Origin: a virus
Direction: 5' to 3' (one strand)
IMG/VR virus record: IMGVR_UViG_3300025674_000015
DNA: 64,000 bases
The translations under genes and the position numbers were made by a program. The notes below the pieces were generated by a model. That model was given only the letters and a program-made list of their open reading frames with translations. It was not told where the DNA came from and made no database searches. Positions 1,955-41,251 of this stretch are shown piece by piece; position 1 is the stretch's first letter; every line of letters begins with the position of its first letter.

Positions 1955-3226
1955 ATGAGGTTCAAAGTGGAAGAGAAAATTAAAGTAATGGTCATTAGTG
2001 ATCATCCTTTATCTCCGTCTGGTGTCGGTATTCAAACAAAATACATGATTGAATCCATTCTAGCAACCGGTAAGTTTAAAGTTTTGTGCTTAGGAGGGGC
2101 AGTTAAGCATCAAAACTATGAGCCGATCTTGGTTGAAGGTTACGACGATGATTGGATGATTATTCCCGTTGATGGGTATGGAACCCAAGATATGGTTCGC
2201 TCAATGTTGGCAAATCATAAACCAGACATTCTTTGGTTTATGACAGATCCAAGGTTTTATGAGTGGCTTTGGGGTATGGAAAATGAAATTAGATCGAACG
2301 TTCCTATGGTTTATTATCACGTTTGGGATAACTATCCTTTACCTGATTTTAACAAAAAGTATTACGATTCAAACGATGTGATTGTTTCAATTTCAAAATT
2401 AACTGACGATGTGGTTCGAAAAGTTGCACCGGATGTTGATTGTAGATATTTGCCACATGCTGTTGATAACAAAGTATTTAAGCCTTTTTATAACCCTAAA
2501 GTAAGGGAGGTAAGAGAAAAATTAACAGATGGCAAAGAAAAGTTTGTTGTTTTTTGGAACAACAGAAATGCAAGAAGAAAACAATCCGGATCTTTGATCT
2601 TCTGGTTTAAAGATTTCTTGGATAAAGTTGGGAATGATAAAGCAACACTTGTTATGCATACAGATCCAAATGACCCAAACGGTCAAGATCTTCAAGCTAT
2701 TTTGGAAAAGTTGGGTCTTGTAAATGGTGAAGTTATTATTTCAGTCCAAAAAGTATCACCAGAAGATATGGCAATTCTTTATAACGCTTCTGATTGTGTA
2801 ATTAACATCTCAGATGCTGAAGGTTTCGGTCTTTCAACACTTGAAGCAATGAGTTGTGGCAAGCCTATTATTGTTAACAAAACTGGTGGATTATCTTCTC
2901 AGATGTCAGAAGAGTTTGAAGCAGGTTTCTTTATTGAGCCGGCCTCAAAAGCTGTCATTGGTTCGCAGAATGTCCCTTATATCTATGAAGATCGATTGGC
3001 TAGTGAAGATGTTGTTTCTGCTTTGGAGGACATGTTCACTCTTTGGACAAAAGACGAAGTTGCTTATAAAGAAATGTGTAGAGCGGCCCTTAAAAACGTT
3101 AAAAAGAACTTTAATTTTGACCATTTGAAGGAAAAATGGGCTGAAATTATGTTAGATGTTCATGAAAAGTACGGCTCTTGGGAAAACAGAAAAAACTATA
3201 AGCACTACAAACTGTATGAATTTTAA
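1955..3226 (+). CDS. Glycosyltransferase, GT-B fold (GT4-like)
   Basis: N-terminal SDHP...SG, RNARRK, EGFGLSTLEAMSCGKP (E-x7-E). The true start may be the GTG at 1967, after GAGG. Confidence 0.9.
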   Translation: MRFKVEEKIKVMVISDHPLSPSGVGIQTKYMIESILATGKFKVLCLGGAVKHQNYEPILVEGYDDDWMIIPVDGYGTQDMVRSMLANHKPDILWFMTDPRFYEWLWGMENEIRSNVPMVYYHVWDNYPLPDFNKKYYDSNDVIVSISKLTDDVVRKVAPDVDCRYLPHAVDNKVFKPFYNPKVREVREKLTDGKEKFVVFWNNRNARRKQSGSLIFWFKDFLDKVGNDKATLVMHTDPNDPNGQDLQAILEKLGLVNGEVIISVQKVSPEDMAILYNASDCVINISDAEGFGLSTLEAMSCGKPIIVNKTGGLSSQMSEEFEAGFFIEPASKAVIGSQNVPYIYEDRLASEDVVSALEDMFTLWTKDEVAYKEMCRAALKNVKKNFNFDHLKEKWAEIMLDVHEKYGSWENRKNYKHYKLYEF

Positions 3227-3236
3227 AGGTTGCTAA

Positions 3237-4508
3237 ATGAAAACTAGAATTTTATTAAGAGGTCCGGTTTTATCTTTTTCAGGGTATGGAGAACACGCTC
3301 GATTTATTCTTCGCGCCTTGCGCTCTCAAGAAGAAAAGTACGATATTCATGTTATTCCAACTGATTGGGGTAAAATGTCTTGGCTTCACAAATTTGACGA
3401 AGAAAGAGAATGGATTGATTATCTGATCAAAAAAACGATGGGTGCTATTGAAAGAAAAGAACAATTCGATCTTTCAATTCAAGTTGACGTCCCTTCTCTT
3501 TTCAAGCCAATGGCTCCTTTGAATATTGGAGTCACCGCCGGTACAGAAACTGATAAAGTTTCGCCGGAATGGATTGAAAAAGTAAACATGATGGACCAAA
3601 TCATCACAACCAGTCAGCACACTTCCGATGGTTTTCTAAAGTCGGTTTATCAAGCAATGAATCAAGCTACTGGACAAAAGATTGAAGACTTTAAATGTAA
3701 TACAAAAGTTGATCATGTTGGATATCCAGTTAAAAATATCGAAACTAAAGAAGTCGAACTAAATTTGAAAACAGACTTCAACTTTTTTGTTTGCGCCACA
3801 TGGTGTGCTAGAAAGAACATCGAAAACACTTTGAAGTGGTTTTTAGAAGAGTTTTATGACAATGAGGAAGTTGGGCTGGTTTTGAAGGTTATGTACCTTA
3901 ATGGCTCTAATTTGGACTTTGAAGTAACAAGACGAAAGATCAAAGACATTGTTTCGAAGTTTAAAGATAGGAAGTGTCACATTTATCTTCTCCATGGAGA
4001 TTTATCAGACGAGGAAATGCACTCTCTTTACAAGAGAAACGATATTAAATGCTTGATCAACTTGGCTCATGGAGAAGGTTTTGGCCTTCCAATCTTTGAA
4101 GCAGCATATTCAGGACTTCCAGTTATTGCCCCGAACTGGGGCGGCTTGAGAGACTTTATGAACATGCAAAACAAAAAGAACAAAGTTCGTCCTTATTTCA
4201 AAACAGTCGACTTTGATGTTGCAAAAATCCAACCTTATGCTGTTTGGAAAGATATCTTGATTAAAGATTCTAATTGGTGCTATCCAAAGCAAGGGTCTTA
4301 TAAAATGGCCTTAAGAGACATGTTTAAGAACTACAATATGCATCTTAATCGAGCGAGAGATTTGAGAGATCATATTTTAGAAGAGTTCAAAGAGGAAAAT
4401 CAATATTCCAAATTGAACAAAATTATTCAAGATGTTGTCGGTCCCGAAGTTTCATCAAATGATATTGATGATTATTTTAACAACTTAGTAGAGGAATTTG
4501 AAAAGTGA
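3237..4508 (+). CDS. Glycosyltransferase, GT-B fold (GT4-like)
   Basis: SGYG N-terminus, RKNI, GEGFGLPIFEAAYSGLPVIA. Confidence 0.9.
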   Translation: MKTRILLRGPVLSFSGYGEHARFILRALRSQEEKYDIHVIPTDWGKMSWLHKFDEEREWIDYLIKKTMGAIERKEQFDLSIQVDVPSLFKPMAPLNIGVTAGTETDKVSPEWIEKVNMMDQIITTSQHTSDGFLKSVYQAMNQATGQKIEDFKCNTKVDHVGYPVKNIETKEVELNLKTDFNFFVCATWCARKNIENTLKWFLEEFYDNEEVGLVLKVMYLNGSNLDFEVTRRKIKDIVSKFKDRKCHIYLLHGDLSDEEMHSLYKRNDIKCLINLAHGEGFGLPIFEAAYSGLPVIAPNWGGLRDFMNMQNKKNKVRPYFKTVDFDVAKIQPYAVWKDILIKDSNWCYPKQGSYKMALRDMFKNYNMHLNRARDLRDHILEEFKEENQYSKLNKIIQDVVGPEVSSNDIDDYFNNLVEEFEK

Positions 4509-6118
4509 TTGTTTTTTGCTCTGATCTTTTTGTGGAACATATTAATGGCGGAGCAGAACTAACTTCTGATGCAATCATCAAAAGCAGTAAGATTCCAATT
4601 GTCAGGCTTTCTACTTTAAATCTAACAATCAGAACAATTCAGCAATACAAGAATCACTTCTGGATTTTTGGAAACTACAAAGGCTTGAAAAAGAAGCTTC
4701 AGTTTCATATTGCTAAAACCGTTGATTATGCAGTTCTAGAGTATGATTATAAATATTGCAAATATCGCTCCCCCGAGTTTCATCAAGAGATTGAAAACAA
4801 AGAGTGCGATTGTGAAAAAACAGAAGATGGAAAAGTAGCTGCTATCTTTCTTCGAAAAGCTAGAGCAGCTTTTTGGATGTCAAAAGCTCAATTGGATTAT
4901 TGTGTTTCCAAGTTTCCTTTCTTGAAAGATGGCAATAATATTGTCTTGAACTCTGTTCTCTCGGAGGAAACTCTAGACAAAATTGAGGCCATGGACTGTG
5001 ACAATAAAAGCGAAACTTGGGGGATCATTGGTTCAACCTCTTGGATCAAGGGGGTGCAAGAAGCAATCGATTACGCAAAGAAAAAAGGCTTGAAATATAA
5101 AGTTCTCTCAGGGTTGACGCATGATAAATGTTTAGAAGCCATGTCAAAAATGAAAGGTCTTATTTTCAAACCTTTAGGAAAAGATACGTGCCCTAGGATT
5201 ACAATGGAAGCAAAGCTTTTGGGTTGTGACTTAGATCTTAATGAGAACGTACAACACAAAGGTGAAGAATGGTTTAAAACAAAAGAATCTTGTTTGGAGC
5301 ATTTAAGAAAAAGAACGGATGTTTTTTGGAGAGAAGTTGAAAAACATATGGATTTCTTAACTTCGTTTGAAACTAAGCAAAAAACACATTTTAAAATTAT
5401 TGTTCCTTTTTACAATGCTGGAAAATGGCTTAAAAAGTGTATTAAAACAATCAAAACTCAAAATTATTCAAATTTTGAGTGTTATTTGATTGATGATATG
5501 TCAGAAGATGAATCGGTTTCCAATCTTAAAAAAGAGATTGGAAACGACAAAAGGTTTACATTAGTACAAAATAAGACAAAAAAGTGGGCTTTGAATGGAA
5601 TTGCAGACGCGATAAAAATGTCAAAAGCAGCCAAAGAAGACGTTGTTATCTTGCTGGATGGAGACGATTGGTTTGCATCTGATTATGTCCTTTCTTATTT
5701 GGATTATATGTACGATGAAAAAGAGTATTGGACTACATATGGAAGTTATGTGATGCATCCTCACGGAATCCCCGGCCCAGAACCTTCAAAGTACCCTGAC
5801 AAGATTGTTGACAATAATGACTATAGAAAAGATGTTTGGAGAGCTTCACATCTTAGAACTTTCAAGAATCATCTATGGGAAAGAATCAAAGATGAAGATC
5901 TTCGGGATCAGGAAGGTGAATATTTTAAAATGGCATATGATCAGGCTGTGATGCTCCCGGTGTTGGAGATGGCTGGAAATAAAGCATTTTATTGTCCAAA
6001 GATCTTGCATGTTTACAATAGGCAAAACCCTTTGAACGTTGATAAGTTGAAAGCCATGGAGCAGAAAAGAACAGCAGATTTCATAAGAACAAAGGAAAAA
6101 TATGAACGTATTCTTTGA
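4505..6118 (+). CDS. Two-domain glycosyltransferase: GT-B-like N-terminus fused to a GT2 (GT-A) C-terminus
   Basis: N-half has GGAE and DTCPRITMEAK; C-half has IIVPFYNA, IDDMSED and LDGDDW. Confidence 0.85.
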   Translation: MIVFCSDLFVEHINGGAELTSDAIIKSSKIPIVRLSTLNLTIRTIQQYKNHFWIFGNYKGLKKKLQFHIAKTVDYAVLEYDYKYCKYRSPEFHQEIENKECDCEKTEDGKVAAIFLRKARAAFWMSKAQLDYCVSKFPFLKDGNNIVLNSVLSEETLDKIEAMDCDNKSETWGIIGSTSWIKGVQEAIDYAKKKGLKYKVLSGLTHDKCLEAMSKMKGLIFKPLGKDTCPRITMEAKLLGCDLDLNENVQHKGEEWFKTKESCLEHLRKRTDVFWREVEKHMDFLTSFETKQKTHFKIIVPFYNAGKWLKKCIKTIKTQNYSNFECYLIDDMSEDESVSNLKKEIGNDKRFTLVQNKTKKWALNGIADAIKMSKAAKEDVVILLDGDDWFASDYVLSYLDYMYDEKEYWTTYGSYVMHPHGIPGPEPSKYPDKIVDNNDYRKDVWRASHLRTFKNHLWERIKDEDLRDQEGEYFKMAYDQAVMLPVLEMAGNKAFYCPKILHVYNRQNPLNVDKLKAMEQKRTADFIRTKEKYERIL

Positions 6119-6998
6119 GAACGTTAATTTTAATAGCAATAGTGGCCCAAACTCTTTTGGAAGAAAACTAGCAAAGCAGTTTCAAAAAAATGGTCATAAT
6201 GTTTGTTCACATGACGAAGCTGATGTTGTTCTTTCTTTTATTCAATCTCATAGAAGACATCATAAGCCAAACATTCTCAGATTGGATGGAATATACTTCA
6301 ATCTAGCTCAGAATTGGGAAGCAATGAACAAAGAAATTCATGAGTCTTATAAGAGAGCAGATGGTATTATCATTCAGTCAGGCTTCAATAAAAAGTTAAT
6401 TGAAGCTTACTTTGGAGAACATCCAAACATTGAAGTTATCCACAACGGAGCAGAGCTAGAACTTATCAATTCTGTAAAGCCTCTGGATAATCGATTAGTC
6501 CAAAAATATGACAATATTTGGTCTTGCGCGGCAGCTTGGAGGCCGCATAAAAGACTAAATGAGAATGTTAAATATTTTCTTGAACACAGGGGGCAAAATG
6601 ATTGTTTGATTGTTGCAGGAAGCAACCATAATGTCAATATAAACCATCCAGACATATATTGCATAGGAAATGTTGATTATGAAACTTTATTGAGGATTTA
6701 TAAAACATCAAAATGTTTTTTACATTTGGCATGGTTAGACAATTGCCCAAATGTTGTTGTTGACGCAAAAGCTGCCGGCTGCAAAATTGTTTGTTCTTCG
6801 TCCGGAGGAACTCCAGAATTGGTTCGCAAAGGTGATATTATTATCCAAGAAGAAGAATGGGACTTTAAGCCTACTATGCTTTACGAGCCACCAGAGCTTG
6901 ACTTTTCTAGGAAAGTTATAAATGAAAACAACAAAGAACCCTATACAATGAAAGGTGTTTCAAAGGAATATGAATTTTTCTTATCAAAATTACTATGA
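6102..6998 (+). CDS. Glycosyltransferase, GT-B fold (GT4-like)
   Basis: SGP N-terminus, IHNG, WRPHKR, DNCPNVVVDAKAAG...GGTPE. Confidence 0.85.
   Translation: MNVFFENVNFNSNSGPNSFGRKLAKQFQKNGHNVCSHDEADVVLSFIQSHRRHHKPNILRLDGIYFNLAQNWEAMNKEIHESYKRADGIIIQSGFNKKLIEAYFGEHPNIEVIHNGAELELINSVKPLDNRLVQKYDNIWSCAAAWRPHKRLNENVKYFLEHRGQNDCLIVAGSNHNVNINHPDIYCIGNVDYETLLRIYKTSKCFLHLAWLDNCPNVVVDAKAAGCKIVCSSSGGTPELVRKGDIIIQEEEWDFKPTMLYEPPELDFSRKVINENNKEPYTMKGVSKEYEFFLSKLL
6908..6983 (+). repeat. Copy 1 of a 76-bp diverged direct repeat (3' end of GT gene 6102..6998)
   Basis: Aligns without gaps to 7667-7742 (offset 759); 59/76 identities by hand. Confidence 0.85.
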
Positions 6999-7680
6999 CC
7001 ATTGGGAATCTCAAAAGAAGCAGTCGATCTATTTAAATGAATTTGATATGTTTATCGGCAATCTAAAAGACGTAAAACCACCAGAAAAATATGTCGACAT
7101 TTGGACAGATATTAATTTACCAATACAGGAGTTAAAAGCCAATAACCATGGTATGTTAGGTAAAAGAAGGCAGAATTGCTTACAAACGCTGTCCAAGCGC
7201 GCTTATTACTTAACTAGAATGGCGGAGTTCATCGGCGCAAAAAACATAGTAGAGGTTGGCACCGCACAGGGTTGGCAATTTTATACTTTTGCTGAACACC
7301 TTAAGGGTACCGGTGGTCACGTTTGGAGTTGTGATATAAAAGACGTCAGGAATCAAAAATATATTAATAGGTATGATAATGCCACGTTTTGCTTAGGTGA
7401 TAGTTCAAAATTGAAGTTAGCATTAGGTGAGGAAAAAATTGATATGTTTTATATCGACGGCGCTCATGACAAAGGAAGTGTTTTGACAGATGTTTTGAAC
7501 CTTAGAGATAATCAATCTGAAGCCCCGATATGGGTTTTCGATGATTTTGATTTGAGATTTGGATGTTATCAAGACATTGCATATCTTTGTAGTAAAAATG
7601 CAAATCACAAAGTGTATGATATTGGGGAGGTTGCTAGCGGCAACCCATCACATCAAGTATTACTAGTAGGAAAATTATAA
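6970..7680 (+). CDS. Class I SAM-dependent methyltransferase (Methyltransf_24-like)
   Basis: IVEVGTAQG motif I, YIDGAH, VFDD. Start placed at ATG 6970 behind AAGGA (ORF track gives 6955). Confidence 0.85.
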   Translation: MNFSYQNYYDHWESQKKQSIYLNEFDMFIGNLKDVKPPEKYVDIWTDINLPIQELKANNHGMLGKRRQNCLQTLSKRAYYLTRMAEFIGAKNIVEVGTAQGWQFYTFAEHLKGTGGHVWSCDIKDVRNQKYINRYDNATFCLGDSSKLKLALGEEKIDMFYIDGAHDKGSVLTDVLNLRDNQSEAPIWVFDDFDLRFGCYQDIAYLCSKNANHKVYDIGEVASGNPSHQVLLVGKL

Positions 7681-7742
7681 ATGAAGATATCAAGGAATGC
7701 TATAGCATTCAAAATGTTGCAAATAAATATGAACTTTTCTTA
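7667..7742 (+). pseudogene. Orphan relic of a glycosyltransferase 3' end (copy 2 of the 76-bp repeat)
   Basis: Translates as RKIINEDIKECYSIQNVANKYELFL, versus RKVINENNKEPYTMKGVSKEYEFFL at the end of GT 6102..6998. Confidence 0.75.
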
Positions 7743-7755
7743 GAGGAGAACCTTA

Positions 7756-8355
7756 ATGTATGGAAGGCATGACAGCTACGAGGATTATATCAATCATCAA
7801 AAAGAAAAAACAACAGATCCAGTCAGAAGAAAGAAGTGGCTTGGTGAGGAGTGGGAACTTAAACTAAGTGGGTTCAAGCAGTTTTTCCATGGATATCTTG
7901 CTGATGATTGCTTGAATGTTGGAGCCAAAGCGCTTTGCATTGGAGCCAGAACTGGACAAGAAGTAAGGGCTTTGTTAGATATGGAGATCGAAGCAGTTGG
8001 TATCGATATTGTCCCATGTCCTCCTTTAGTGGTAGAAGGTGATATGCACAATTTGAACTTTGAAGATAATTCTTTTGACTTTGTATTTTCAAATGTTTAC
8101 GATCATTCTTTATATCCGGTCAAAAAATGTCAAGAAGTTATGAGAGTTTTGAAAAAGGGTGGGGTTGGAGTATTTCACCTACAAGTAAACGTAAATTCGG
8201 ATAAATACTCAGAAAACCACATTTATAATGTAAAATATGACGTTTTACCAAACTTGCAAAAAGCTCAAATTATTAGAGTTGAGAAGTTAAAGCCAAACTT
8301 TTCGGGCATGAATTACGAAGTGATATTTAAAAAAATAGGAGGTTTTAATGGCTAG
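7756..8355 (+). CDS. Class I SAM-dependent methyltransferase (Methyltransf_11-like)
   Basis: ALCIGARTG, GDMHNLNFEDNSFDFVF, RVLKKGG; GAGGAG RBS. Confidence 0.85.
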   Translation: MYGRHDSYEDYINHQKEKTTDPVRRKKWLGEEWELKLSGFKQFFHGYLADDCLNVGAKALCIGARTGQEVRALLDMEIEAVGIDIVPCPPLVVEGDMHNLNFEDNSFDFVFSNVYDHSLYPVKKCQEVMRVLKKGGVGVFHLQVNVNSDKYSENHIYNVKYDVLPNLQKAQIIRVEKLKPNFSGMNYEVIFKKIGGFNG

Positions 8356-9232
8356 ATGCTTAGTTACCGGTCATAAAGGTTACATTGGGAGTAAAGTTTA
8401 TAAAAAATTAGTAGAATTAGGACATGAAGTCATAGGGATTGATCTTAAAAACGGCTCAGATATTCTGAAAGATCTCAGAGAATATAGTGATAATAGTGGT
8501 AATTTTCATCCCCTTTACGCAAATTTTAAGCCGGAATATGTTTTCCATCTAGCAGCGATCCCAAGAGTGCCATACAGTGTTAAGTTTCCAGTTGAAGTAA
8601 TGGAAAACAATATCCTAACAACATCGATTGTCTTGAACTATGCTAGAAAGGTTGGCGCGAAAAGAGTCATTTATTCTAGCTCTTCTTCTGTTGTGGGAAA
8701 TGGAGAAGGCCCAGAAAGCCCTTACGCTCTTTCAAAGTTGGTGCCGGAAATGGAATGTAAAATGTATTCAAAACTTTATGGGTTGGATACGGTCTGTTTA
8801 AGGTATTTCAACGTATATTCCACAGATCAGCGCCCGGATGGAGCTTATGGCACAGCAGTTGCCTCTTTCATGTCTGCAATCGAAAAAGGACAAAGGCCGT
8901 ATATCACCGGAGACGGAGAACAAAGAAGAGATATGCTAAACGTTCATGACGCCGTTTCAGCTAATATCTTTTGTATGGAAAGAAAAGAAAACTTCAATGG
9001 ACAACATTTTGACGTTGGCACTGGGGAGAACATCTCACTTAACGAGATTAAAGAAATTGTCAAAGAGTACCATCCAAACGTGGAATTTGATTATGTCGAT
9101 CCTCGCGCTGGGGATGTTATGTACACAAAAGCAGATACTTCCGGCTTGAAAAAGCTAGGGTGGCAAGTAAAAGTCAATATTAAAGAAGGAATTAGAAAAT
9201 GCTTCAAAGGAGTCAAAAATGAAGATTTTTAA
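8348..9232 (+). CDS. NAD-dependent NDP-sugar epimerase/dehydratase (extended SDR)
   Basis: TGHKGYIG, HLAA, SSSS, YALSK (YxxxK), LRYFNVY, GDGEQRRD. Confidence 0.92.
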   Translation: MARCLVTGHKGYIGSKVYKKLVELGHEVIGIDLKNGSDILKDLREYSDNSGNFHPLYANFKPEYVFHLAAIPRVPYSVKFPVEVMENNILTTSIVLNYARKVGAKRVIYSSSSSVVGNGEGPESPYALSKLVPEMECKMYSKLYGLDTVCLRYFNVYSTDQRPDGAYGTAVASFMSAIEKGQRPYITGDGEQRRDMLNVHDAVSANIFCMERKENFNGQHFDVGTGENISLNEIKEIVKEYHPNVEFDYVDPRAGDVMYTKADTSGLKKLGWQVKVNIKEGIRKCFKGVKNEDF

Positions 9233-28000: not shown

Positions 28001-31000
28001 ACTCCTTGGGTTACAAATATGGCTCTAGCGTGTGGCCTTTGGAGCTTTCTGTTTATCCAACTGGAACTGTGTATGATGATTTTGTAGGTTTCTTGCCGGC
28101 CCCAGCGCCGGCTATACAAGAATATCACTCTTACGCTGCTGGGGCTGCATATGTAACAGGAAACCTAAAAACGGTAGCCGGCGGTGCTTTTGGAGAGTTG
28201 CATATCTCCTTGGGAGCAGGTGACCGATCTGGCGCACAGCTTACTCTCTCTCCTTTACCAGCTGTTACAGGAAACAATATTATACTAGATCCAAACCTGA
28301 AAGGTATGTTTGGAACAGTCAACTACCATGGTGGTGAGTCGCCGCTAGGTTCAGATGAAAGGCTTTTGCTAGCGTATAAATACCCAACAGCGTCTATTTT
28401 TTATTCTTATCTTCCGGAGTTAGGATTTTCGTCTTCTGCTGAGTTTGTATTCCCACACCGGGTTCACGAGCAAGCAGGGAGATATCCGTGGTATGATACA
28501 TATCAAGATTACGCAGACGAATTGAGAAGGTTAGGTAAAGGCTATTCTATTTTACCAGAATATAAAATGAGTGAAAACATTGACACTCTTCTAGATTCTG
28601 CCAATTTGTTTAAAAATAATAAAATGTTGACATTGGCAGGGGCAGGTGATGTTACATCTAGCGCACATGCTAGTGGTAGCACAGAATTGGAAAGATTTTT
28701 TAAAGAATATTCGCATTCTGACTTTTTATCAGAGTTTTCTGACGTAAAACAGGACTTTTCTAACTTTTCTTTAGAAAAACTAACCCTTAAGTGTAAAGGT
28801 GTAAAAAAGATTTTGCCTTATAACGGTTTTTATCCTGTTACTAGAACAACACAATTGGCTTCTTTGTTGTCTCAATCGGTAGCTCCATACCTTTCAGGTT
28901 CTTATTATGGTAGTGCTCATGCAGATCCAAATGCACAGTTTGCCTTTACAGAAAGGCCGTTAAGCGGTGCATTGGCTGTGCAGTCGTTGATGCAACCTTT
29001 CTTCGCACCGGGCATTATGTATAACACAATCAAATCCGGAATCGCTTGTGATTGGCCTTCATATACCGGTTCTTTGGATCTTTTAGATACGGAACAGATA
29101 CAAACGCCGGCATTGTTCGCGGTATCCTTCATAGCAACACAAGCACCAAACTATAGAATTCCATTTGAAATTATGACAGACTTGGAGTTTGAAAAGGCAT
29201 TACCAGAAGAAGAAGTTTATTTATTTGCACCAGACAAGGTTAATCCAAAAGATCCGACTGCTGCTGCAAATGATAATCCATTTTTAAGATATCCCTTCTT
29301 CAAGCTAACCAAAGAAAGGATTAGTAAAAGAAGGCCGAACTTTGAATTAGCTTCACAAAACTTTTTTGGAGAGGTGCCAAAGTTCTTTTTGGACGGTGGA
29401 AAATTAAACTATTTTAAATCAAAAAGAAACAAAGAGTTTAAACCTTTTGTTTCCGGAAACACATATTATATGGATGTAAAGCTGTATAAGACAGATAATT
29501 TTGACATGATCAGGAGTGCAGTTTCTGGAGTTGTTTATAACTCACTAGACGCTGTTAACCCAACAGATGGGAACATCAATGATCGGCCCCGTTCTTATCA
29601 TGGTAGGTATTTCGGCCCGCCAATGCAATATCACACAAACTCACTAGGAGTGATTGTCCATAGAGGTTTGGAGTATTCTGATCCTGCATATGCACCTTTT
29701 ACTCCTCCTTATTTCTATGGAGAATCAAAAGTTACAGTTGCATACACAGCAGATAAAGAAAACCCAACAGTGGAAGAGATTCTTTCAAAAGCAACTTATA
29801 CATATACAAACTCTGCTTTGAATGGGGATTACGCCGGTTCCGGCTCGGACGTTGGCATATTTAAAAGATTGCAGGCGACTGGCTCTTTTCACCCGCCGGT
29901 TGATTATGTTTCAGCGGCTCAAAAGGCTATGATGAATATTAGTTCATCTGTGAATCTTAGAGGGCGAAAGATAGAGTCAAAACAAGAGAGAGACACGTCC
30001 GGTGGCACAATCACGTTTAAAACCTTAGATGGAACTCCCGGAGAAGATGATGTTTGGGTTATCTCTCCAAAATTCGAGTGCCCAACCCTAAACTTCTCAG
30101 GTTCGCCAGAACAGCACCCGGCAGAATACAGCGGTGCAGTGGGGATGTGGTCTTCTTACGGAACAGAACCTTTGGCCGGCCAAGGAATCTTTTTGGAATT
30201 AGGAGACACTTACACTAAGGGTCTAGTAGCAGAGAATACAGGCTCTCTTATCGAACAGTGCGGCTTTGATTCTTCAAATGATAAATTTGGGAATGAAGGT
30301 TTTGACGCAACAACATTGAAAAGAAGAATAGGAAGGGTGGCAAAATCAAAGAAAATTTCAGAAGCAATTGTTGCAATTCCTTTCTTTGAAAAGGAAATCA
30401 AGCAAATTAGCTTGAATTTGGAACAAAAAAGTTCAACACCTTCATCTATGTTTTCGACTGTCACTAGAGATGAATACAATGGTCGTCACTTTGTTGGAAT
30501 CAACAAAGAAGTTTTTAACGTGCAAAGAAGAAACGTTTTGGACTTCAACTCCCCTGCTTTGAAAAAAGGATTTTCATTTAAAGGAGAGACTTTGGAACAA
30601 GATATCAAAAATACTTCGGTATCAAACATGATCAAGAAAATGAATAAGTTTGTTATTCCGCCACAGTTTGATTTCTTGAATTTTGATTCGATTGATCCAT
30701 TTGTAATGTATATCTTTGAATTTGAAGCAGAGCTTAACAAACAAGATCTTTCTGACATTTGGCAAGGAGTTATGCCGGCTCCAAGAAAGAACAATGGCTT
30801 TGCAGCAGAACTTCAAGAAGTTGAAATTAGCCATGGCTTCTCAAAGTTCGAATTTTATGAAGGAAATCAAAACTTCTTGTTCGGGCAAAAGGATAATAAA
30901 GTAAGGTGGCTGGTATTTAAAGTTAAACAGAGAGCAGAAAAGTTTTATGCAAACATAGCAGATCCTCAATATATTGATGGAGAGAAGAAGCTGGTTAAGA

Positions 31001-31302
31001 ACACTAGTGCGGATCACATTCATTATAACTGGCCTTATGACTTTTTCTCTTTGGTTGAAGTTGCAAAGATTGGCGTTGACATGGAAATGAATCCTAAAAA
31101 AGAAAAGCCCAAGTTCGAACAATTGGGAACTTTACAGGAGATTTCACCAATTAAACAACCAGAAGAGGATTTGATCAAACAACCACCGGCAGAAGTAGCT
31201 ACATTTGAGCCGGCAAATCAGATTCCAGTTGTTGCAGAGCCAACAATTCAAACAGCTTTGGTTTCTAGTCTTCCAAGCATAATTTTTGGAGAAGATGAAT
31301 AA
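22045..31302 (+). CDS. Giant (3085 aa) baseplate wedge/fibre-attachment protein with LamG domains (gp7-like)
   Basis: TVEFW...SLDEFRYW LamG-type motifs; IYKSKGTENSFRNLIRCFG resembles the gp7/gpI-type wedge motif. Confidence 0.7.
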   Translation: MSLKKYFAEGYSKNSLPNTGDQVKSEVESLKYIKARSEENNKFIPHVDFSSASNFARYGSAEKYYEDAFTHIYQEYPYDGSLKEKTEWDNSLLFVDRYVFDNLYPRTTGYVKLGEEYGTLEASVSDYGGVPTASYEYIRINGGPNLYFEPPGERDLPASTYLKLDNANRFKLDEGRSSNLNFDLSSAKSGSTVEFWMHKQAMVSNSTTNREVIFDLWNGHNSQSADYGRLTIEMQTVDTTNPLFKVTAQSGSPASGFFSQDIGTLTRNDVIETTAHYAFAFKNEDSSIKVSFYHNGELNEEKLLGTSINAVTGAMRANIGSLVHSPSGTAYMPSVVGSETMNGWGKLSASLDEFRYWRSERDAKEIKRYYRTQVGGGTNTDFDKHDKFSPVELGVYFKFNEGITQTSSVDSVVLDYSGRVSNGVWTGYAQSSRDTGSLIDNASINDVAEFKDPIIYSFHPTVVSKLDELKTEGRMHDQQNTALLYNNFPSWMLQEDSESTLYRLTQIIGSYFDNLHLHVEALPRLKDTTYPSASFKPRPYGEKLLDSVGLDAPELFIDTKLIEIFEARDEKVIYEKDLSEVKNLIYQNIYNNLVNIYKSKGTENSFRNLIRCFGVDSEILNVNIYSDNDVYTFEENYKPNSVRKTYLDFNGAGTFDSYAATVYLTASATDALAGPGYISASNDYRMYYIPFSMESDVIFPRKVSQLGELGFRSSTFLSSSIFGLHLADPDTHGSDTTWPSYDQDLRVYAVRSGGSSRNAKFVLTGSLQSGASSVLIETDTYLDVYDEAKWNFAVRLKHEDFPYTNGIDGTVDPSKKYVLEFYGAAFEAGFIRQSFHKSASIELGTPVQDILRKPKRPYIGAHRTNFTGSVQEYSDAKIGSFRFWQSYLDNEAVQAHARDPRNVGSLNPSKNAFFLDDSLTGSNIPQIETLVMNWEFQKENNLTSSAGGVIEDILDWSSGSTETKYDTQHKFLGAILNRAHTGRGFGFSGSSGQMFKDEYVFVHEQQPIETVNSDSTVNILSEDDELFTRDSRPVKHVVTVEKSMNRVVSNEMLKYFGSMKDLNNIVGEPVNRYRKEYKALSKIRHLFYEKVQNTPDIDKFLDFYKWLDFSVNYMVSQLSPASAQVSAEFGDVIESHILERNKYHNKFPSMKDALPKKPLSAVPKLSRPGRSFLTSPIDPGSFPSQIKDLHWWKYKARKADIGNSSGDAVVDADRQTIGDSITQTMERQDTALLKNFEVSDHSSPRYSIHGGINYPLAKKTDYILSAVRPHGPAIDVSGMLLPLNAMTIASSSITASLNKFNANTDFALDFPNAKRRIQFKAINQREDENSTDKSYASAKGDIFAPFSLFSGTVETGYNKEVVDEFASGVVLTNLHSDDYGSHGETPVQGPFTFAHVGGRKHRHVRPNRSSSYDNFTTTNGLDDERTRPEAFKLLLGAESSTTGETGLIGLVGPDYPALDDTLYPDVDTAFSTYYRNTLSKRPLNIRNISYNTSSAILGNYRSNHEVVNTTGRKENNLYFRLNGASASYSPSAYLTGVVDFELPDRSSKKTKSVFVSRFSAPGGPEVNARGFLDLEAEEYSVYNALPYRNLTVRQPLNQLLSQHAGPFGLNWLNGVEGGHFPAINQGGNIYAPFPNPAAEFLSTSSLDGSQVASFHKVNRNRGRKLILSGTAGTTVVSASQFDNAFITHPIPRSDLQYSWITASAEYSRYLGHAPADGYYFITTAGEIPAIEFLTGSDREETPDFAGINRFLYETVDTETNTVGELPSESDINKLILHRGGPYGYPSWKQVRQGQHAIIREQNKKSVFSLTDDPVTVSGDGYILKPARETITNFTESAVSFNNRPMQVELRFRDSDYNFKFSYGNFKELFKSAEVNKRLKNFNPSFNLDPEVKPYETIKKLSQDPEVAITKLVYSEGVFPKEENAGLNRTRDKEDYAEIAGTGSNGYDRISLDRRKFWGADDDRLRTSESTVTRKPHTHAASGSYLNSLGYKYGSSVWPLELSVYPTGTVYDDFVGFLPAPAPAIQEYHSYAAGAAYVTGNLKTVAGGAFGELHISLGAGDRSGAQLTLSPLPAVTGNNIILDPNLKGMFGTVNYHGGESPLGSDERLLLAYKYPTASIFYSYLPELGFSSSAEFVFPHRVHEQAGRYPWYDTYQDYADELRRLGKGYSILPEYKMSENIDTLLDSANLFKNNKMLTLAGAGDVTSSAHASGSTELERFFKEYSHSDFLSEFSDVKQDFSNFSLEKLTLKCKGVKKILPYNGFYPVTRTTQLASLLSQSVAPYLSGSYYGSAHADPNAQFAFTERPLSGALAVQSLMQPFFAPGIMYNTIKSGIACDWPSYTGSLDLLDTEQIQTPALFAVSFIATQAPNYRIPFEIMTDLEFEKALPEEEVYLFAPDKVNPKDPTAAANDNPFLRYPFFKLTKERISKRRPNFELASQNFFGEVPKFFLDGGKLNYFKSKRNKEFKPFVSGNTYYMDVKLYKTDNFDMIRSAVSGVVYNSLDAVNPTDGNINDRPRSYHGRYFGPPMQYHTNSLGVIVHRGLEYSDPAYAPFTPPYFYGESKVTVAYTADKENPTVEEILSKATYTYTNSALNGDYAGSGSDVGIFKRLQATGSFHPPVDYVSAAQKAMMNISSSVNLRGRKIESKQERDTSGGTITFKTLDGTPGEDDVWVISPKFECPTLNFSGSPEQHPAEYSGAVGMWSSYGTEPLAGQGIFLELGDTYTKGLVAENTGSLIEQCGFDSSNDKFGNEGFDATTLKRRIGRVAKSKKISEAIVAIPFFEKEIKQISLNLEQKSSTPSSMFSTVTRDEYNGRHFVGINKEVFNVQRRNVLDFNSPALKKGFSFKGETLEQDIKNTSVSNMIKKMNKFVIPPQFDFLNFDSIDPFVMYIFEFEAELNKQDLSDIWQGVMPAPRKNNGFAAELQEVEISHGFSKFEFYEGNQNFLFGQKDNKVRWLVFKVKQRAEKFYANIADPQYIDGEKKLVKNTSADHIHYNWPYDFFSLVEVAKIGVDMEMNPKKEKPKFEQLGTLQEISPIKQPEEDLIKQPPAEVATFEPANQIPVVAEPTIQTALVSSLPSIIFGEDE

Positions 31303-37971: not shown

Positions 37972-38919
37972 ATGGGCTTTTTAGACAATTCCGGAGACAT
38001 CATACTTGATGCGGTTCTTACCGACACAGGTAGAATGCGTTTAGCAAAGGGCGACGGCAGCTTTAAGATCGTAAAGTTCGCTCTTGGCGACGATGAAATC
38101 GACTATTCCACTTATAATGACGCTCATACATCAGGGTCAGCGTACTTTGATTTAGAGATTCTACAAACACCAGTTTTAGAAGCTTTTACAAACAATGCTT
38201 CTTCGATGAAACACAAGCTAGTTTCTTATTCTAGAAACGATCTTCTTTATCTTCCTACGATCCAGTGGTTTTCAAATGCGTCTAGCACCACTCCTCATGG
38301 TAACTTTTCAAATGAAGTTGCAAAAGTTCTTGTTGATTCTGCAACAGTCACAGGGTTGGCAGCGACTAACTCACAAGATCAATATATGAAATATGATGAA
38401 TCTGGTGAAGTTATCATTTTAGAGCAGGGTCTAGACACGACAGAGATTTCTTGGAGAGAGACTATTCAATCCGATCTTATTGAAACTCAATATATTGTTG
38501 AAATGGACGATCGATTAGGAAAGTTGTTTTCTGGAGATCGACTGAATGGAAATCGACAATCGGCAGTTCCTTCTTTTATTGATGACGATAATATTGCCAG
38601 TTATTATTTGAGTCTGGGTGTTAACGATTCTTTTGTTAAAGATAGCGAAACTTATAGTCCATGGGCTAGAAAGCTTAAAGAGACGGACACCACCGCCACA
38701 CCAGACGGGCCAATTAAAGGGCCTTTTGGAACTGCGTTGCTTTTGTTCGTCAAACCTAGCATCAACTTGCAAACCAGTAATTTCTACTTTACTAGGCTGG
38801 GTAGAGAAGCAGTCATCGACGCGGTTAATGTCTACATCTTAGACACAACTGTACGAATCACTGGCGCAACCACCGGTTATTCAATTGACATTCCTGTTAG
38901 ATATATTAAGAAAAGATAA
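37972..38919 (+). CDS. Tail-collar/baseplate structural protein (P2 gpH N-terminal-like start)
   Basis: AVLTDTGRMRLAKG...KFALGDD. Confidence 0.65.
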   Translation: MGFLDNSGDIILDAVLTDTGRMRLAKGDGSFKIVKFALGDDEIDYSTYNDAHTSGSAYFDLEILQTPVLEAFTNNASSMKHKLVSYSRNDLLYLPTIQWFSNASSTTPHGNFSNEVAKVLVDSATVTGLAATNSQDQYMKYDESGEVIILEQGLDTTEISWRETIQSDLIETQYIVEMDDRLGKLFSGDRLNGNRQSAVPSFIDDDNIASYYLSLGVNDSFVKDSETYSPWARKLKETDTTATPDGPIKGPFGTALLLFVKPSINLQTSNFYFTRLGREAVIDAVNVYILDTTVRITGATTGYSIDIPVRYIKKR

Positions 38920-38930
38920 GGAAAAATAAA

Positions 38931-40082
38931 ATGGCAACAACTTTTAAAACGTTCTTGAATAATGACAAGACAACCTCTAGAACTTTGCTTCATGAGTCGA
39001 TTCCAATTACAGGCTCTATTGTTTCTGGAACATATGACACTGCTGCCGGTGTCTCTAGAAACATTAAAGATTTCAGCCATGGCATGTTCCAGTCTGTTTA
39101 TGACTATCCTTATCTCAGTTCGTCTGCGAACCATATTTTTGATGTTACGGTTGGTTATGCTTCCACGTCTCACGCATCTGCTTCGACGAGTACACAAAAC
39201 TCCAAAAAGATCAATGTCTACAACTCCATGGCGCAGGTATTGGCTGGTAACGATGTTACCGGTTCAATTCTAGAGTTTGATGAAGACGGTGATTATGAAG
39301 CCGGCGGAAGCAAACTTAAGGAAGTTTTCATCCTGAACTTTGCTAGGCTTTTGTCAAAAGACGAAATTCAAAAAGGCTCCTTCCAGCTCCAGCTTGGACT
39401 TTCCGGAACACAAGGTGCAGATCGTTTTGGAACCGGTGGAAACTTTGCAAACGACTTTATCCTGAACATTACAGACGCTAGCGGCTCGAATCGGTACTAT
39501 ACCAACTCCCCCGCCGGCGAGTATGGAATTCTTTTTGCAACAGCTTCGGCCACTTCCGGTGATGGAAGTCAACTTCTGGCAAACTCTGGCTATAGACCTT
39601 GCGGTTTGTTGTATTATCAAGCCGGTATTGCAGTTCTTTCAGGTTCTGTGTTTACTAGCAATACAGACGGTGGTCTGCTCAATTCTTCTATTTACAACGT
39701 TAATGATCCCGCTGTTTCACCAACGAACGCCGGAACTGTAACGTTTGAACAAGCTTTGACTGGGAACAATATTCAAACTATTTCTGACTCTATTCGGAAC
39801 AGAATTTACAACGTTCAGTTCAACAACACAACTGAATTGAATTCGACAATTTACTTCTGCCGAGTAAATCATAATGAATTCAACTATAGTTCAAACCCAA
39901 CTTATGTCTCTGATAGTAAAATTAGAGTTAAAAGAGATGACACTGACACTCCCGTTTCTTACTTTACAACCGTTGGCCTTTACTCTGCTGACAATGAGCT
40001 TCTGGCGGTTGCAAAGCTGTCTGAGCCTATCAAGAAGACCCCTGAGAACGAAGTAACCCTAAGAGTGCGTTTGGATTACTAA
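38931..40082 (+). CDS. Tail-collar/baseplate structural protein
   Basis: C-terminal FNYSSNPTY...YFTTVGLYSADNELLAVAKLSEPIKK...VRLDY. Confidence 0.7.
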   Translation: MATTFKTFLNNDKTTSRTLLHESIPITGSIVSGTYDTAAGVSRNIKDFSHGMFQSVYDYPYLSSSANHIFDVTVGYASTSHASASTSTQNSKKINVYNSMAQVLAGNDVTGSILEFDEDGDYEAGGSKLKEVFILNFARLLSKDEIQKGSFQLQLGLSGTQGADRFGTGGNFANDFILNITDASGSNRYYTNSPAGEYGILFATASATSGDGSQLLANSGYRPCGLLYYQAGIAVLSGSVFTSNTDGGLLNSSIYNVNDPAVSPTNAGTVTFEQALTGNNIQTISDSIRNRIYNVQFNNTTELNSTIYFCRVNHNEFNYSSNPTYVSDSKIRVKRDDTDTPVSYFTTVGLYSADNELLAVAKLSEPIKKTPENEVTLRVRLDY

Positions 40083-40084
40083 AC

Positions 40085-41251
40085 ATGGCTTTTTACAAGT
40101 TCAATAAAGATGATATTTTGGTTAATACCATTAAATCATACCCTCAAGTTAATTTCTTCATAAACAACAAATATGTGTTCTATAATCAGCAAATTCCAGA
40201 GACAGGCTCTACGACCTCGACTCGTGGGGTTCCAAATGGACACATTAGTCTTCATGAGTTGAATGTTGATCGACCTTCTGGTCAATTGATCTCTCCTTTT
40301 GTGTACAAAACTTCTGATTTGAATGTTTTCAGATCGGTGACAGCAACCTCATTCAATCAAGGTCAGTACGGCGATAAGATTGATGGATATTACCCAATGT
40401 CCGCTTCGCTTTCAGTTGATAGGTTGGCAGGAACACATAAGAAGATCACAGCGCTTAAAAACACCATGAATTTCTATAGAAGATTTAGCCAGCATTATGA
40501 ATTTAATTCAGGGGCAGATCGTCTAGATAGGAACATAGCTAACTCAACTGTCAACTTGATCAGCATTCCTTCTATATTTTATGGCTCGCAAATCAAAAAA
40601 GGAACAGTTGATTTAAAGTTTCTAGTTTCTGGAACTTTGCTAGCACAACTTAAAGATGAAAAGCAAAACGGAGAACTAATTCAAACAGGCCCAGAAGGAA
40701 GTTTAGGCTCTGGATCGACACAAGGCATTGTTTTATACAATGAAGGTTTCCTTCTCCTGACCGGCTCAGATTCCTTGCATGGCTCGCATAGAGAGAATTA
40801 TCTAGGAACCGGACCAGAAGCTCCTGCATGGATTTACTTTGCAACAACAGGCTCTGCAACGGCTGGAACCGGAGTGCCTTCTTCTAGCTTCGATTTAGCC
40901 TTTAGCGGAACTTCCTATATTGAAAACATCACAATGTTCGCTCATGCGAAAAGAGGCGAGCTTAATCACTCAAACAACCCAACTTATATTTTGTCAGGCT
41001 CCGGCAACAATTATATGACAGTTACAACCGGCTCCGGAAATCAATACAAAGAATTGGACAACATTCAAATCAAAAATGTTGTTTCAGCTTCTTATCAAAA
41101 CGTCACAGGCTCTTTTGAGAAAACAACCTATATCTCAAAAATTGGAATTTATGATAAGGATAAGAACCTTATTGGAATCACCAGCATGGCCGTCCCAATT
41201 AAAAAAACAGCTAATAGAGGATTAACATTTAAGATCAAGTATGATATATGA
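40085..41251 (+). CDS. Tail-collar/baseplate structural protein, paralogue of 38931..40082
   Basis: LNHSNNPTY...YISKIGIYDKDKNLIG...PIKK...KIKYDI. Confidence 0.7.
   Translation: MAFYKFNKDDILVNTIKSYPQVNFFINNKYVFYNQQIPETGSTTSTRGVPNGHISLHELNVDRPSGQLISPFVYKTSDLNVFRSVTATSFNQGQYGDKIDGYYPMSASLSVDRLAGTHKKITALKNTMNFYRRFSQHYEFNSGADRLDRNIANSTVNLISIPSIFYGSQIKKGTVDLKFLVSGTLLAQLKDEKQNGELIQTGPEGSLGSGSTQGIVLYNEGFLLLTGSDSLHGSHRENYLGTGPEAPAWIYFATTGSATAGTGVPSSSFDLAFSGTSYIENITMFAHAKRGELNHSNNPTYILSGSGNNYMTVTTGSGNQYKELDNIQIKNVVSASYQNVTGSFEKTTYISKIGIYDKDKNLIGITSMAVPIKKTANRGLTFKIKYDI

What the first reader, a model, noticed from the sequence alone, without database searches (positions are those of the whole stretch)
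1955..41251. Candidate virion glycosylation system: GT cluster plus an [ST]-[GA]-S motif enriched in baseplate/tail proteins
Seen: TGS/SGS/TAS/SAS occur about 30 times in the 3085-aa protein, 12 in the 518-aa (20492), 9 in the 388-aa (40085), 6 in the 383-aa (38931) and 2 in the 143-aa (52794) protein (hand counts). I saw none in the gp6-like, 1585-aa, SbcCD or terminase proteins; the primase has 3. The same window encodes four glycosyltransferase genes (five GT domains), two methyltransferases and an NDP-sugar epimerase. Known: some mycobacteriophages glycosylate their virions with phage-encoded GTs. Inference: [ST]-[GA]-S is an O-glycosylation sequon for a phage-built, possibly methylated glycan coat on the adsorption apparatus.
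Basis: partly seen in the sequence, partly recalled or inferred. Interest (0 to 1): 0.82.

Follow-up and report, generated by a model that had tools for sequence, protein, structure and literature searches.

The report
Ser/Thr-Gly/Ala-Ser tag on phage virion proteins
The outward-facing particle proteins of this abundant uncultured marine T4-related phage carry the ordered tripeptide Ser/Thr-Gly/Ala-Ser four to eight times more often than chance; the excess mostly travels with a conserved pair of phage sugar-transferase genes, so it may be where a phage-made sugar coat attaches, but no chemistry shows this.

Summary
Observation confirmed. The hand counts are exact: 30, 12, 9, 6 and 2 motifs, against 6.4, 1.7, 1.1, 1.5 and 0.4 expected. 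TGS, SGS and SAS are the three most over-represented of all tripeptides in these proteins, while same-composition permutations are not enriched. The sites are conserved in 80 relatives. Four GT genes, two methyltransferases and an epimerase are real; a fifth GT domain was not found.

The excess is a trait of a deep clade: this marine lineage, Flavobacterium phage immuto, Microcystis phage Mel-JY01 and Rhodothermus phage RM378. It is absent from T4, HTVC008M, S-H9-2, XG4 and LR756511. It also reaches beyond the baseplate, to sheath insertion domains, a capsid insertion and fibre-like proteins.

LR756508 nests inside the clade. It kept GT-A, lost the adjacent GT-B, and shows no excess. Published LC-MS of immuto DNA reports no glycosylated base. 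Against a strict link, one 92%-complete relative has a motif-rich sheath but no detectable GT-A or GT-B.

An O-glycosylation sequon is the best reading (about 0.45). A clade-specific structural motif remains a serious rival. No glycan has been measured. The scan has already noted this motif on other windows, mostly related phages.

The parts
1955..3226 (+). GT-A: soluble GT4 (GT-B fold) glycosyltransferase, 423 aa, EX7E motif present
   Evidence: Pfam Glycos_transf_1 8e-16. Homologues occur in only 13 of 50,697 phage records. Orthologues are present in immuto, Mel-JY01, RM378 and LR756508. EX7E is seen in the alignment.
3237..4508 (+). GT-B: second soluble GT4, 423 aa, adjacent paralogue of GT-A, EX7E retained. 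It is the only enzyme whose distribution follows the motif.
   Evidence: Pfam 2e-8. AF2 model pLDDT 90.4. The best PDB neighbour is chlorovirus NY-2A B736L, E 4e-15. It is absent from LR756508. Phyletic profile. Fused to GT2 in some relatives.
4505..6118 (+). 537-aa protein: unassigned N-terminal 292 aa plus a C-terminal GT2 (GT-A fold) domain
   Evidence: Pfam Glycos_transf_2 2e-19 at residues 298-421. The N-terminal half has no Pfam or PDB match.
6102..6998 (+). Short GT4-like glycosyltransferase, 298 aa
   Evidence: Pfam Glycos_transf_1 1e-7 and Glyco_transf_4 5e-5.
6955..7680 (+). SAM methyltransferase (Methyltransf_24), flanked by a 76-nt direct repeat at 6908-6983 and 7667-7742
   Evidence: Pfam 7e-12. 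Repeat copies are 78% identical, 759 nt apart.
7756..8355 (+). SAM methyltransferase (Methyltransf_11)
   Evidence: Pfam 1.7e-11.
8348..9232 (+). NAD-dependent NDP-sugar epimerase/dehydratase
   Evidence: Pfam Epimerase 1.4e-45. An orthologue is present in immuto.
18693..20492 (+). gp6-like baseplate wedge protein, 599 aa, 0 motifs. It anchors the baseplate module and serves as an internal non-target control.
   Evidence: PHROG baseplate wedge families. 0 motifs against 0.7 expected.
20492..22048 (+). 518-aa virion protein made of tandem FN3/Ig-like beta-sandwiches, 12 motifs
   Evidence: z 8.0. 80 homologues average 11.3 motifs against 2.0 expected, and positions are conserved. Motif residues are more conserved than other S/T/G/A. 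AF2 model and Foldseek matches.
22045..31302 (+). 3085-aa giant baseplate/tail protein, 30 motifs
   Evidence: z 9.8. The G001 homologue (4098 aa) has 34 motifs against 10 expected.
38931..40082 (+). 383-aa virion protein, 6 motifs, distant paralogue of the next gene
   Evidence: z 3.9. Homologues in G001 (7 motifs), immuto, Mel-JY01 and RM378.
40085..41251 (+). 388-aa virion protein, 9 motifs
   Evidence: z 7.7. The G001 homologue has 10 motifs.
52794..53225 (+). 143-aa protein, 2 motifs. Its G001 homologue (4 motifs) lies beside a 913-aa protein with 26 motifs.

Best explanation
The tripeptide, in fuller form hydrophobic-[Ser/Thr]-[Gly/Ala, sometimes Ser]-Ser-hydrophobic, is a selected, clade-specific feature of the exposed parts of virion proteins. 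Those parts are baseplate and tail proteins, sheath insertion domains, a capsid insertion and fibre-like proteins. The most likely role is an acceptor site for O-glycosylation in the cytoplasm, before or during assembly.

Inferred steps: the conserved soluble GT4 pair (GT-A at 1955-3226 and GT-B at 3237-4508, both with an intact EX7E motif) starts the glycan on the position-3 Ser, with [ST]-[GA] as the recognition context. The lineage-variable GT2 and GT4 enzymes extend it. The two methyltransferases cap sugars. The epimerase supplies the NDP-sugar. The result would be a glycan coat on the outside of the particle.

Shown: the motif statistics, their conservation, their location, the enzyme families and their phyletic distribution. 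Inferred: that the GTs act on these proteins, which residue is modified, and the order of enzymes.
For: (1) The enrichment is large, order-specific and Ser-specific at position 3. TGS, SGS and SAS are the top three of all tripeptides.
(2) At least five protein families with no BLAST similarity to one another carry it. All other G001 proteins stand at 0.85x expectation.
(3) In the 518-aa family, sites are conserved and substitutions stay within the motif class. Motif S/T residues are more conserved than other S/T (0.79 vs 0.44 and 0.91 vs 0.57; p 0.002 and 0.0001). Gly/Ala at position 2 is only weakly more conserved (0.80 vs 0.60, p 0.04). Lineage-specific sites also come and go, with 43 columns used in all.
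(4) Location: all 24 sheath motifs of G001, immuto and Mel-JY01 lie in the N-terminal/insertion part (24 observed, 6.4 expected), with 0 in the conserved core. Capsid-protein motifs lie in a clade-specific insertion.
(5) Whole-proteome rank of TGS / SGS is 4/2, 4/1, 11/6 and 24/6 in the four genomes with GT-A plus GT-B. In T4, HTVC008M, S-H9-2, XG4 and LR756511 the ranks are 615-7737 for TGS and 27-4561 for SGS.
(6) LR756508 nests inside the carriers (TerL 98/97, MCP 98/95). It keeps GT-A, lacks GT-B, and has no excess: 1 sheath motif against 7-9, and 1 capsid motif against 3-4. The trees therefore force at least 2 changes.
(7) In a BLAST phyletic profile, GT-B is the only enzyme with a strong match (E 5e-60) that follows the motif's distribution. 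The only other hits are a motif-rich virion protein and a weak PolA fragment (E 5e-6).
(8) The hosts span Bacteroidota, Cyanobacteria and Rhodothermota, which argues for a phage-intrinsic acceptor rather than a host glycan.
(9) Immuto DNA contains dA, dC, dT and fdPreQ1 only (PMC10516641). The marine relatives have no TS-type hydroxymethylase and no C5-methylase. The TET/JBP search also found nothing, but it had no positive control.
(10) GT4 enzymes that glycosylate Ser in short repeats are among the structural neighbours (GtfA, SdgB). Distant GT4 homologues sit beside capsid genes, with a GT2 and a methyltransferase, in small siphoviruses.
Against: No glycan has been detected on any of these proteins. 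The carriers form one side of a single split against T4-type phages, so most of the co-occurrence is shared ancestry; LR756508 adds only one further event. G026 (176 kb, estimated 92% complete) has a motif-rich sheath (8 motifs against 1.2 expected) but no detectable GT-A, GT-B or GT2, only a weak GT4-like ORF 2 kb from the contig end. Other relatives carry different GT4 proteins (G027). RM378 has only a very divergent GT-B (HMM 1.8e-8), and its own sheath and capsid protein are not enriched. In fibre-like proteins the motif recurs every 4-7 residues followed by an aromatic residue, which looks like a structural repeat. The Ser-rich 942-aa and 905-aa proteins are not enriched. GT fold and family do not reveal the acceptor. 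Four small phages with distant GT4 homologues show no such excess.
Confidence: 0.45

Rival explanations
1. The tripeptide is a structural or assembly element. It could be a beta-strand segment with two outward hydroxyls at positions i and i+2, a small inward residue between them and hydrophobic flanks, or a turn or repeat unit of fibrous beta-structure. It could also be a recognition element for a clade-specific assembly chaperone. On this reading the clade inherited it, and the GT cluster does something else, for example remodelling host surface glycans or glycosylating a small molecule.
For: Hydrophobic residues are enriched at -1 (55% against 31% background) and +1 (46%). In the AF2 model most sites sit at strand ends or inside strands. 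Fibre-like proteins show dense arrays of [ST][GA]S[FYL]xx units beside a GDGSxLTGI motif. The carriers form one clade. G026 has the motif without detectable GT-A or GT-B.
Against: Beta-sandwich-rich and fibre-rich virion proteins of T4, S-H9-2, HTVC008M, XG4, LR756511 and LR756508 show no such excess. The motif spread across families that are unrelated by BLAST, including late insertions in the sheath and capsid protein. Thr, a better beta-former, is excluded at position 3. No conserved sequence extends beyond +/-1, as a shared domain would require. The excess disappeared from the nested LR756508 together with GT-B.
Confidence: 0.3
2. The tripeptide is a sequon for a different modification of Ser or Thr, such as phosphorylation, acylation or phosphoglycerol, made by another phage enzyme or a conserved host enzyme. 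Its association with the GT4 pair would then be coincidental.
For: The same statistics and conservation as for the glycosylation reading apply. Nothing identifies the chemistry.
Against: The phyletic profile found no other enzyme that follows the motif. The hosts belong to three phyla, so a host enzyme is unlikely.
Confidence: 0.1
3. The GT cluster glycosylates phage DNA, as T-even phages do, and the tripeptide is unrelated to it.
For: Phage GTs are classically DNA-modifying. A PD-(D/E)XK nuclease gene lies next to GT-A in G001 and immuto, and close to it in Mel-JY01 and LR756508.
Against: LC-UV-MS/MS of immuto DNA shows canonical dA, dC and dT with fdPreQ1 replacing dG, and reports no glycosylated nucleoside (PMC10516641). 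Near-complete marine relatives have no thymidylate-synthase-type hydroxymethylase and no C5-methylase; a TET/JBP search was also empty but lacked a positive control. A pathway of four GTs, two methyltransferases and an epimerase exceeds known DNA glucosylation systems.
Confidence: 0.04

Closest known systems
Mycobacteriophage virion O-glycosylation by phage-encoded glycosyltransferases (Freeman et al. 2023, Cell Host Microbe; known here only through its citation in PMC12619734)
   Same: Phage-encoded soluble GTs are thought to act in the cytoplasm on structural proteins and give a glycan shield. Small phages with distant homologues of GT-A have the same layout, with GT genes beside the capsid gene.
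   Different: There the glycans sit on the C-termini of the capsid and tail-tube subunits of actinobacterial siphoviruses. Here a dispersed internal tripeptide marks many proteins of T4-related myoviruses, and no glycan has been measured.
Cytoplasmic Ser O-glycosylation of bacterial adhesins by GT4 enzymes: GtfA/GtfB on serine-rich-repeat proteins and SdgA/SdgB on Ser-Asp repeats (PDB 5e9t, 4pqg, 7vfl)
   Same: GT4 fold. Two adjacent GT-B paralogues. Ser acceptors in short motifs with a small neighbouring residue. Further GT-A and GT-B enzymes extend the glycan. Both systems work in the cytoplasm.
   Different: GtfB is non-catalytic, whereas GT-B here keeps EX7E. No DUF1975 was found. GtfA and SdgB are only rank 47-49 structural neighbours. 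Those substrates are long disordered repeats; here the sites are mostly isolated in folded beta-sandwich domains.
Chlorovirus capsid glycosylation by virus-encoded cytoplasmic GTs, and the chlorovirus NY-2A GT B736L (PDB 3oy2). The mechanism is stated from general knowledge.
   Same: The machinery is virus-encoded and independent of the host, uses a non-canonical sequon and produces methylated sugars. B736L is the best structural neighbour of GT-B (E 4e-15) and a sequence hit of GT-A.
   Different: The chlorovirus glycans are N-linked and the virus infects a eukaryotic alga. B736L itself has no assigned function.
General O-glycosylation of Bacteroidota, with the three-residue sequon D-[ST]-[AILVMT] (general knowledge)
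   Same: A three-residue O-glycosylation sequon written into many unrelated proteins. One host of the clade is a Flavobacterium.
   Different: That system is periplasmic, lipid-linked and host-encoded, and uses a different motif. Phage proteins assemble in the cytoplasm.

Membership tests
GT4 retaining glycosyltransferases (Pfam Glycos_transf_1, GT-B fold) | C-terminal Glycos_transf_1 domain with the EX7E motif | tested here: met
   GT-A and GT-B both score above the Pfam cut-off. EX7E is conserved in the window, G001, immuto and Mel-JY01 orthologues.
GT4 retaining glycosyltransferases (Pfam Glycos_transf_1, GT-B fold) | Two-Rossmann-domain GT-B fold | tested here: met
   The GT-B AF2 model has pLDDT 90.4. 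The top 40 PDB neighbours are almost all GT4-type GT-B enzymes.
Phage virion glycosylation system (mycobacteriophage type) | Phage-encoded soluble glycosyltransferases with no flippase, polymerase or other membrane component | tested here: inconclusive
   Four GT genes, two methyltransferases and an epimerase are confirmed, and none matched a membrane-protein family. Transmembrane segments were not predicted.
Phage virion glycosylation system (mycobacteriophage type) | Glycan covalently attached to virion proteins (glycostain or mass spectrometry) | not testable with these tools
   No proteomic or glycan data for any member were found in the library.
Phage virion glycosylation system (mycobacteriophage type) | Acceptor sites on C-terminal extensions of the capsid and tail-tube subunits | tested here: not met
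   Motifs are dispersed inside many proteins. The capsid sites lie in an internal insertion.
GtfA/GtfB-type O-GlcNAc transferase pair | Second subunit is a non-catalytic GT-B paralogue | tested here: not met
   GT-B retains the EX7E residues in all four aligned orthologues.
GtfA/GtfB-type O-GlcNAc transferase pair | Substrate is a long disordered Ser-rich repeat region | tested here: not met
   Most sites are isolated within predicted beta-sandwich domains. Only the fibre-like proteins show dense arrays.
T-even-type DNA glycosylation | A pathway to a hydroxymethylated base (TS-type hydroxymethylase, or TET/JBP with a C5-methylase) | tested here: not met
   PF00303 and PF00145 were absent from 4-5 large relatives while the positive controls matched. 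PF12851 was also absent, but that search had no positive control.
T-even-type DNA glycosylation | Glycosylated nucleosides in virion DNA | tested here: not met
   Published LC-UV-MS/MS of immuto DNA, a phage that carries the orthologous GT pair, shows dA, dC, dT and fdPreQ1 only (PMC10516641). DNA of the marine lineage itself has not been tested.

The most novel reading that the evidence does not exclude
A deep and globally abundant clade of T4-related phages writes a three-residue O-glycosylation sequon, hydrophobic-[ST]-[GA]-S-hydrophobic, into the exposed domains of its capsid, sheath, baseplate and fibre proteins. The clade includes this marine lineage and the cultured phages immuto, Mel-JY01 and RM378. 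A dedicated cytoplasmic GT4 pair would read the sequon, so the whole particle would wear a phage-made, lineage-variable, partly methylated glycan coat. This would be the first defined sequon for virion glycosylation in phages.
Probability: 0.4. Interest if true: 0.85.

Novelty: new variant of a known kind. Interest (0 to 1): 0.7.

Why it matters
Virion glycosylation by phage enzymes has been shown only for some mycobacteriophages, and I found no phage sequon described in the library I searched. If the tripeptide is a sequon, glycosylation sites could be read directly from sequence in a lineage with thousands of metagenomic relatives: more than 7,600 GT-A homologues, more than 400 relatives of the 518-aa protein and more than 600 sheath relatives. 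That would bear on adsorption, particle stability, stickiness to marine polymers and evasion of host or grazer recognition. Three cultured members, plus a natural GT-B-less relative, make the idea testable with ordinary virion mass spectrometry.

Tried and rejected
- Composition artefact: rejected by per-protein shuffles and by same-composition permutations.
- DNA-level motif: rejected because codons vary.
- Shared hidden domain: BLAST finds no similarity among the enriched families except the 383-aa/388-aa pair, and no conserved context extends beyond +/-1.
- Family assignment of the motif-rich proteins: Pfam and PHROGs give nothing, and tblastn of the 518-aa protein against 50,697 phage records finds no match.
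- Primase motifs: not conserved in orthologues, so noise.
- GtfA/GtfB analogy with an inactive partner: not supported, because GT-B keeps EX7E.
- Fifth GT domain: not found.
- DNA glycosylation: disfavoured.
- Depletion of the motif in non-virion proteins as a sign of sequon avoidance: not convincing, because T4 also stands at 0.78x.
- Motif in small siphoviruses with distant GT4 homologues beside the capsid gene: none found.
- More LR756508-like genomes: only one short near-identical contig and one 64-kb contig turned up.
- Solvent accessibility: could not be computed, because model coordinates are not returned.
- Freeman et al. 2023 is not held in the library.


Full report
**What the window is.** All genes lie on the + strand of a phage with about 37% GC. 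It carries a gp6-like baseplate wedge, SbcC, primase, terminase and portal genes. No whole genome is held. The 518-aa protein has no match among 50,697 deposited phage records but at least 413 relatives in IMG/VR, on contigs of up to 171 kb. The closest cultured relatives by terminase are Microcystis phage Mel-JY01 and Flavobacterium phage immuto, at 44-45% identity.

| Protein | Observed | Expected | z |
|---|---|---|---|
| 3085 aa | 30 | 6.4 | 9.8 |
| 518 aa | 12 | 1.7 | 8.0 |
| 388 aa | 9 | 1.1 | 7.7 |
| 383 aa | 6 | 1.5 | 3.9 |

- Local composition does not explain it. [ST][GA]S is 5.3x expectation, while the four same-composition permutations are 1.0-1.4x.
- Position 3 must be Ser. T[GA]T is 0.7x.
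- Position 1 takes Ser or Thr, but not Ala, Gly, Asn or Asp.
- Gly is preferred over Ala in the middle, and Ser is weakly tolerated there.
- An unbiased scan of all tripeptides puts TGS, SGS and SAS first to third, both here and in a 171-kb relative, G001.
- Flanking residues are hydrophobic: 55% at -1 and 46% at +1, against a 31% background.
- Codons at the sites are diverse.
- The three motifs in the primase are not conserved in its orthologues.
- Pfam confirms four GT genes, two methyltransferases and an epimerase. The fifth GT domain is not supported.

**Conservation.** In 80 homologues of the 518-aa protein (52-71% identity) the mean count is 11.3 against 2.0 expected. Most of the window's sites are conserved, and substitutions stay within TGS/SGS/TAS/SAS/SSS. 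Motif Ser and Thr residues are significantly more conserved than other Ser and Thr in the same protein. Across the family 43 different columns hold a motif, so sites are also gained and lost.

In G001 the enriched set includes the orthologues of the window's proteins. It also includes a 913-aa protein (26 motifs), 443-aa, 208-aa and 133-aa proteins near the portal and capsid genes, the tail sheath (9 motifs) and, weakly, the gp23-like capsid protein (4 motifs).

- All other G001 proteins together stand at 0.85x expectation.
- The enriched families are not similar by BLAST, except the 383-aa/388-aa pair.
- In the sheaths of G001, immuto and Mel-JY01, all 24 motifs lie in the N-terminal/insertion part (6.4 expected), with none in the conserved C-terminal core.
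- The capsid-protein sites lie in an insertion that T4-type capsid proteins lack.
- The 518-aa protein models as tandem FN3/Ig-like sandwiches, and its motifs sit mostly at strand ends.
- In fibre-like proteins the motif forms dense arrays of [ST][GA]S followed by an aromatic or aliphatic residue. Immuto's 1053-aa protein has 53 motifs.

**Distribution across phages.** GT-A has homologues in only 13 of 50,697 phage records.

| Group | Genomes | Proteome rank of TGS / SGS |
|---|---|---|
| GT-A plus adjacent GT-B | G001, immuto, RM378, Mel-JY01 | 4/2, 4/1, 11/6, 24/6 |
| Neither GT | T4, HTVC008M, S-H9-2, XG4, LR756511 | TGS 615-7737, SGS 27-4561; no protein is strongly enriched |

- RM378's GT-B is very divergent.
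- Four small siphoviruses have distant GT4 homologues (about 25% identity). In three of them the gene sits next to the capsid or portal gene. In phiPsal1 and S-CBS4 it also has a GT2 and a methyltransferase beside it, and TJE1 has a methyltransferase and an epimerase. None of the four shows the excess.
- TerL, capsid and sheath trees put all carriers on one side of a single, fully supported split. Most of the co-occurrence is therefore shared ancestry.

**A natural test.** LR756508 is an uncultured 484-kb phage that belongs to the clade.

- Identity to G001: TerL 41%, capsid protein 52%. It also has the gp6-like protein, the sheath and several clade-specific genes.
- It nests among the carriers, with support 98/97 in the TerL tree and 98/95 in the capsid tree.
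- It keeps GT-A, now beside a cytidylyltransferase and a GT29-like gene, but has no GT-B.
- It has no excess: TGS rank 560, no enriched protein, 1 sheath motif against 7-9 in carriers, and 1 capsid motif against 3-4.
- The starred branches force at least two changes of the trait.
- In a BLAST phyletic profile, only three G001 proteins are present in immuto and Mel-JY01 yet absent from LR756508 and all non-carriers. These are GT-B (E 5e-60), the motif-rich 388-aa homologue, and a weak polymerase fragment.

**A caveat from a wider sample.** Eighty more diverse sheath genes of the clade mostly carry 4-18 motifs in the N-terminal part, against 1.2-4.7 expected. Only the LR756508-like one has none. 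In this set the C-terminal core sometimes holds 1-4 motifs.

- Among the larger contigs, G028 and G030 have the GT-A/GT-B pair.
- G027 has other GT4 fusion proteins related to GT-B right beside its sheath gene.
- G026 (176 kb, estimated 92% complete) has 8 sheath motifs but no detectable GT-A, GT-B or GT2. It has only a weak GT4-like ORF 2 kb from the contig start.
- Whether the GT pair lies in G026's missing 8% could not be settled, because no region fetches were left.

**What the GTs act on.**

- DNA is unlikely. Published LC-UV-MS/MS of immuto DNA shows canonical dA, dC and dT, with fdPreQ1 replacing dG (PMC10516641). Large marine relatives lack a TS-type hydroxymethylase and a C5-methylase. 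A TET/JBP search was also empty, but it had no positive control.
- A host glycan acceptor is hard to reconcile with conservation of the pair across phages of Bacteroidota, Cyanobacteria and Rhodothermota.
- Both GT-A and GT-B keep EX7E.
- The GT-B model (pLDDT 90) is closest to the chlorovirus NY-2A GT B736L, then to generic GT4 enzymes. The protein Ser-O-glycosyltransferases GtfA and SdgB appear only at ranks 47-49. Fold therefore allows a protein acceptor but does not indicate one.
- GT-B is fused to a GT2 domain in some relatives, consistent with a multi-step pathway.

**Verdict.** The motif is real, selected, clade-specific and concentrated in exposed parts of virion proteins. A GT4-read O-glycosylation sequon is the single best explanation, at about 0.45. 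A clade-specific structural or assembly motif is a serious rival, at about 0.3. Another modification is possible, at about 0.1.

Nothing here measures a sugar. The library searches found no description of such a sequon in phages. The scan itself has noted the same tripeptide on other windows, mostly related phages. LR756508 did not appear in the earlier notes I searched.

Noticed in passing
window 6908-6983 and 7667-7742: A 76-nt direct repeat (78% identical, 759 nt apart) brackets the Methyltransf_24 gene. This methyltransferase therefore looks like an inserted cassette that duplicated the 3' end of the upstream GT gene.
   Followed up: partly
L106, L107, L108, L105 (Mae-JY09, phiPsal1, S-CBS4, TJE1): In phiPsal1 and S-CBS4, a distant GT4 homologue of GT-A lies beside the major capsid or portal gene together with a GT2 and a SAM methyltransferase. 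This is a compact cassette placed as in glycosylated mycobacteriophages. Mae-JY09 has only the GT4 next to its capsid gene. TJE1 has the GT4 with a methyltransferase and an NDP-sugar epimerase upstream of the terminase. None of the four shows [ST][GA]S enrichment, so if they glycosylate virions they use another acceptor.
   Followed up: partly
L222:5432-9877 (LR756508 305.4-309.9 kb): In the 484-kb relative, GT-A is followed not by GT-B but by a cytidylyltransferase and a GT29 sialyltransferase-like gene. This suggests a nonulosonic-acid-type pathway has replaced part of the cluster.
   Followed up: partly
immuto 97658-100819 and 135075-136196; G001 82296-85037: The fibre-like, motif-dense proteins repeatedly contain F-x-G-D-G-S-x-L-T-G-I just after runs of [ST][GA]S[FY] units. 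The role of this second motif is unknown.
   Followed up: no
window 20492-41251 (motif sites): Gly at motif position 2 is encoded mostly by GGC or GGT (34 of 38), although GGA is the commonest Gly codon elsewhere in the same genes.
   Followed up: no
P0130, P0150, P0155, P0168 and others: In some marine relatives GT-B is fused to a C-terminal GT2 domain, giving proteins of 650-700 aa.
   Followed up: no
G027 70.4-72.8 kb (L313, L317); Mel-JY01 4747-8430: Large GT4-containing proteins of 671-1227 aa, related to GT-B, lie directly beside the sheath gene (G027) or beside motif-dense proteins (Mel-JY01).
   Followed up: partly
window 13492-18249; G001 128595-136175: The giant protein upstream of the baseplate wedge has no motif at all: 0 against 1.0 expected in the window's 1585-aa protein, and 0 against 3.1 in G001's 2526-aa protein. 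It evolves fast (22% identity over only 171 residues), so it may be an internal, non-exposed component.
   Followed up: no
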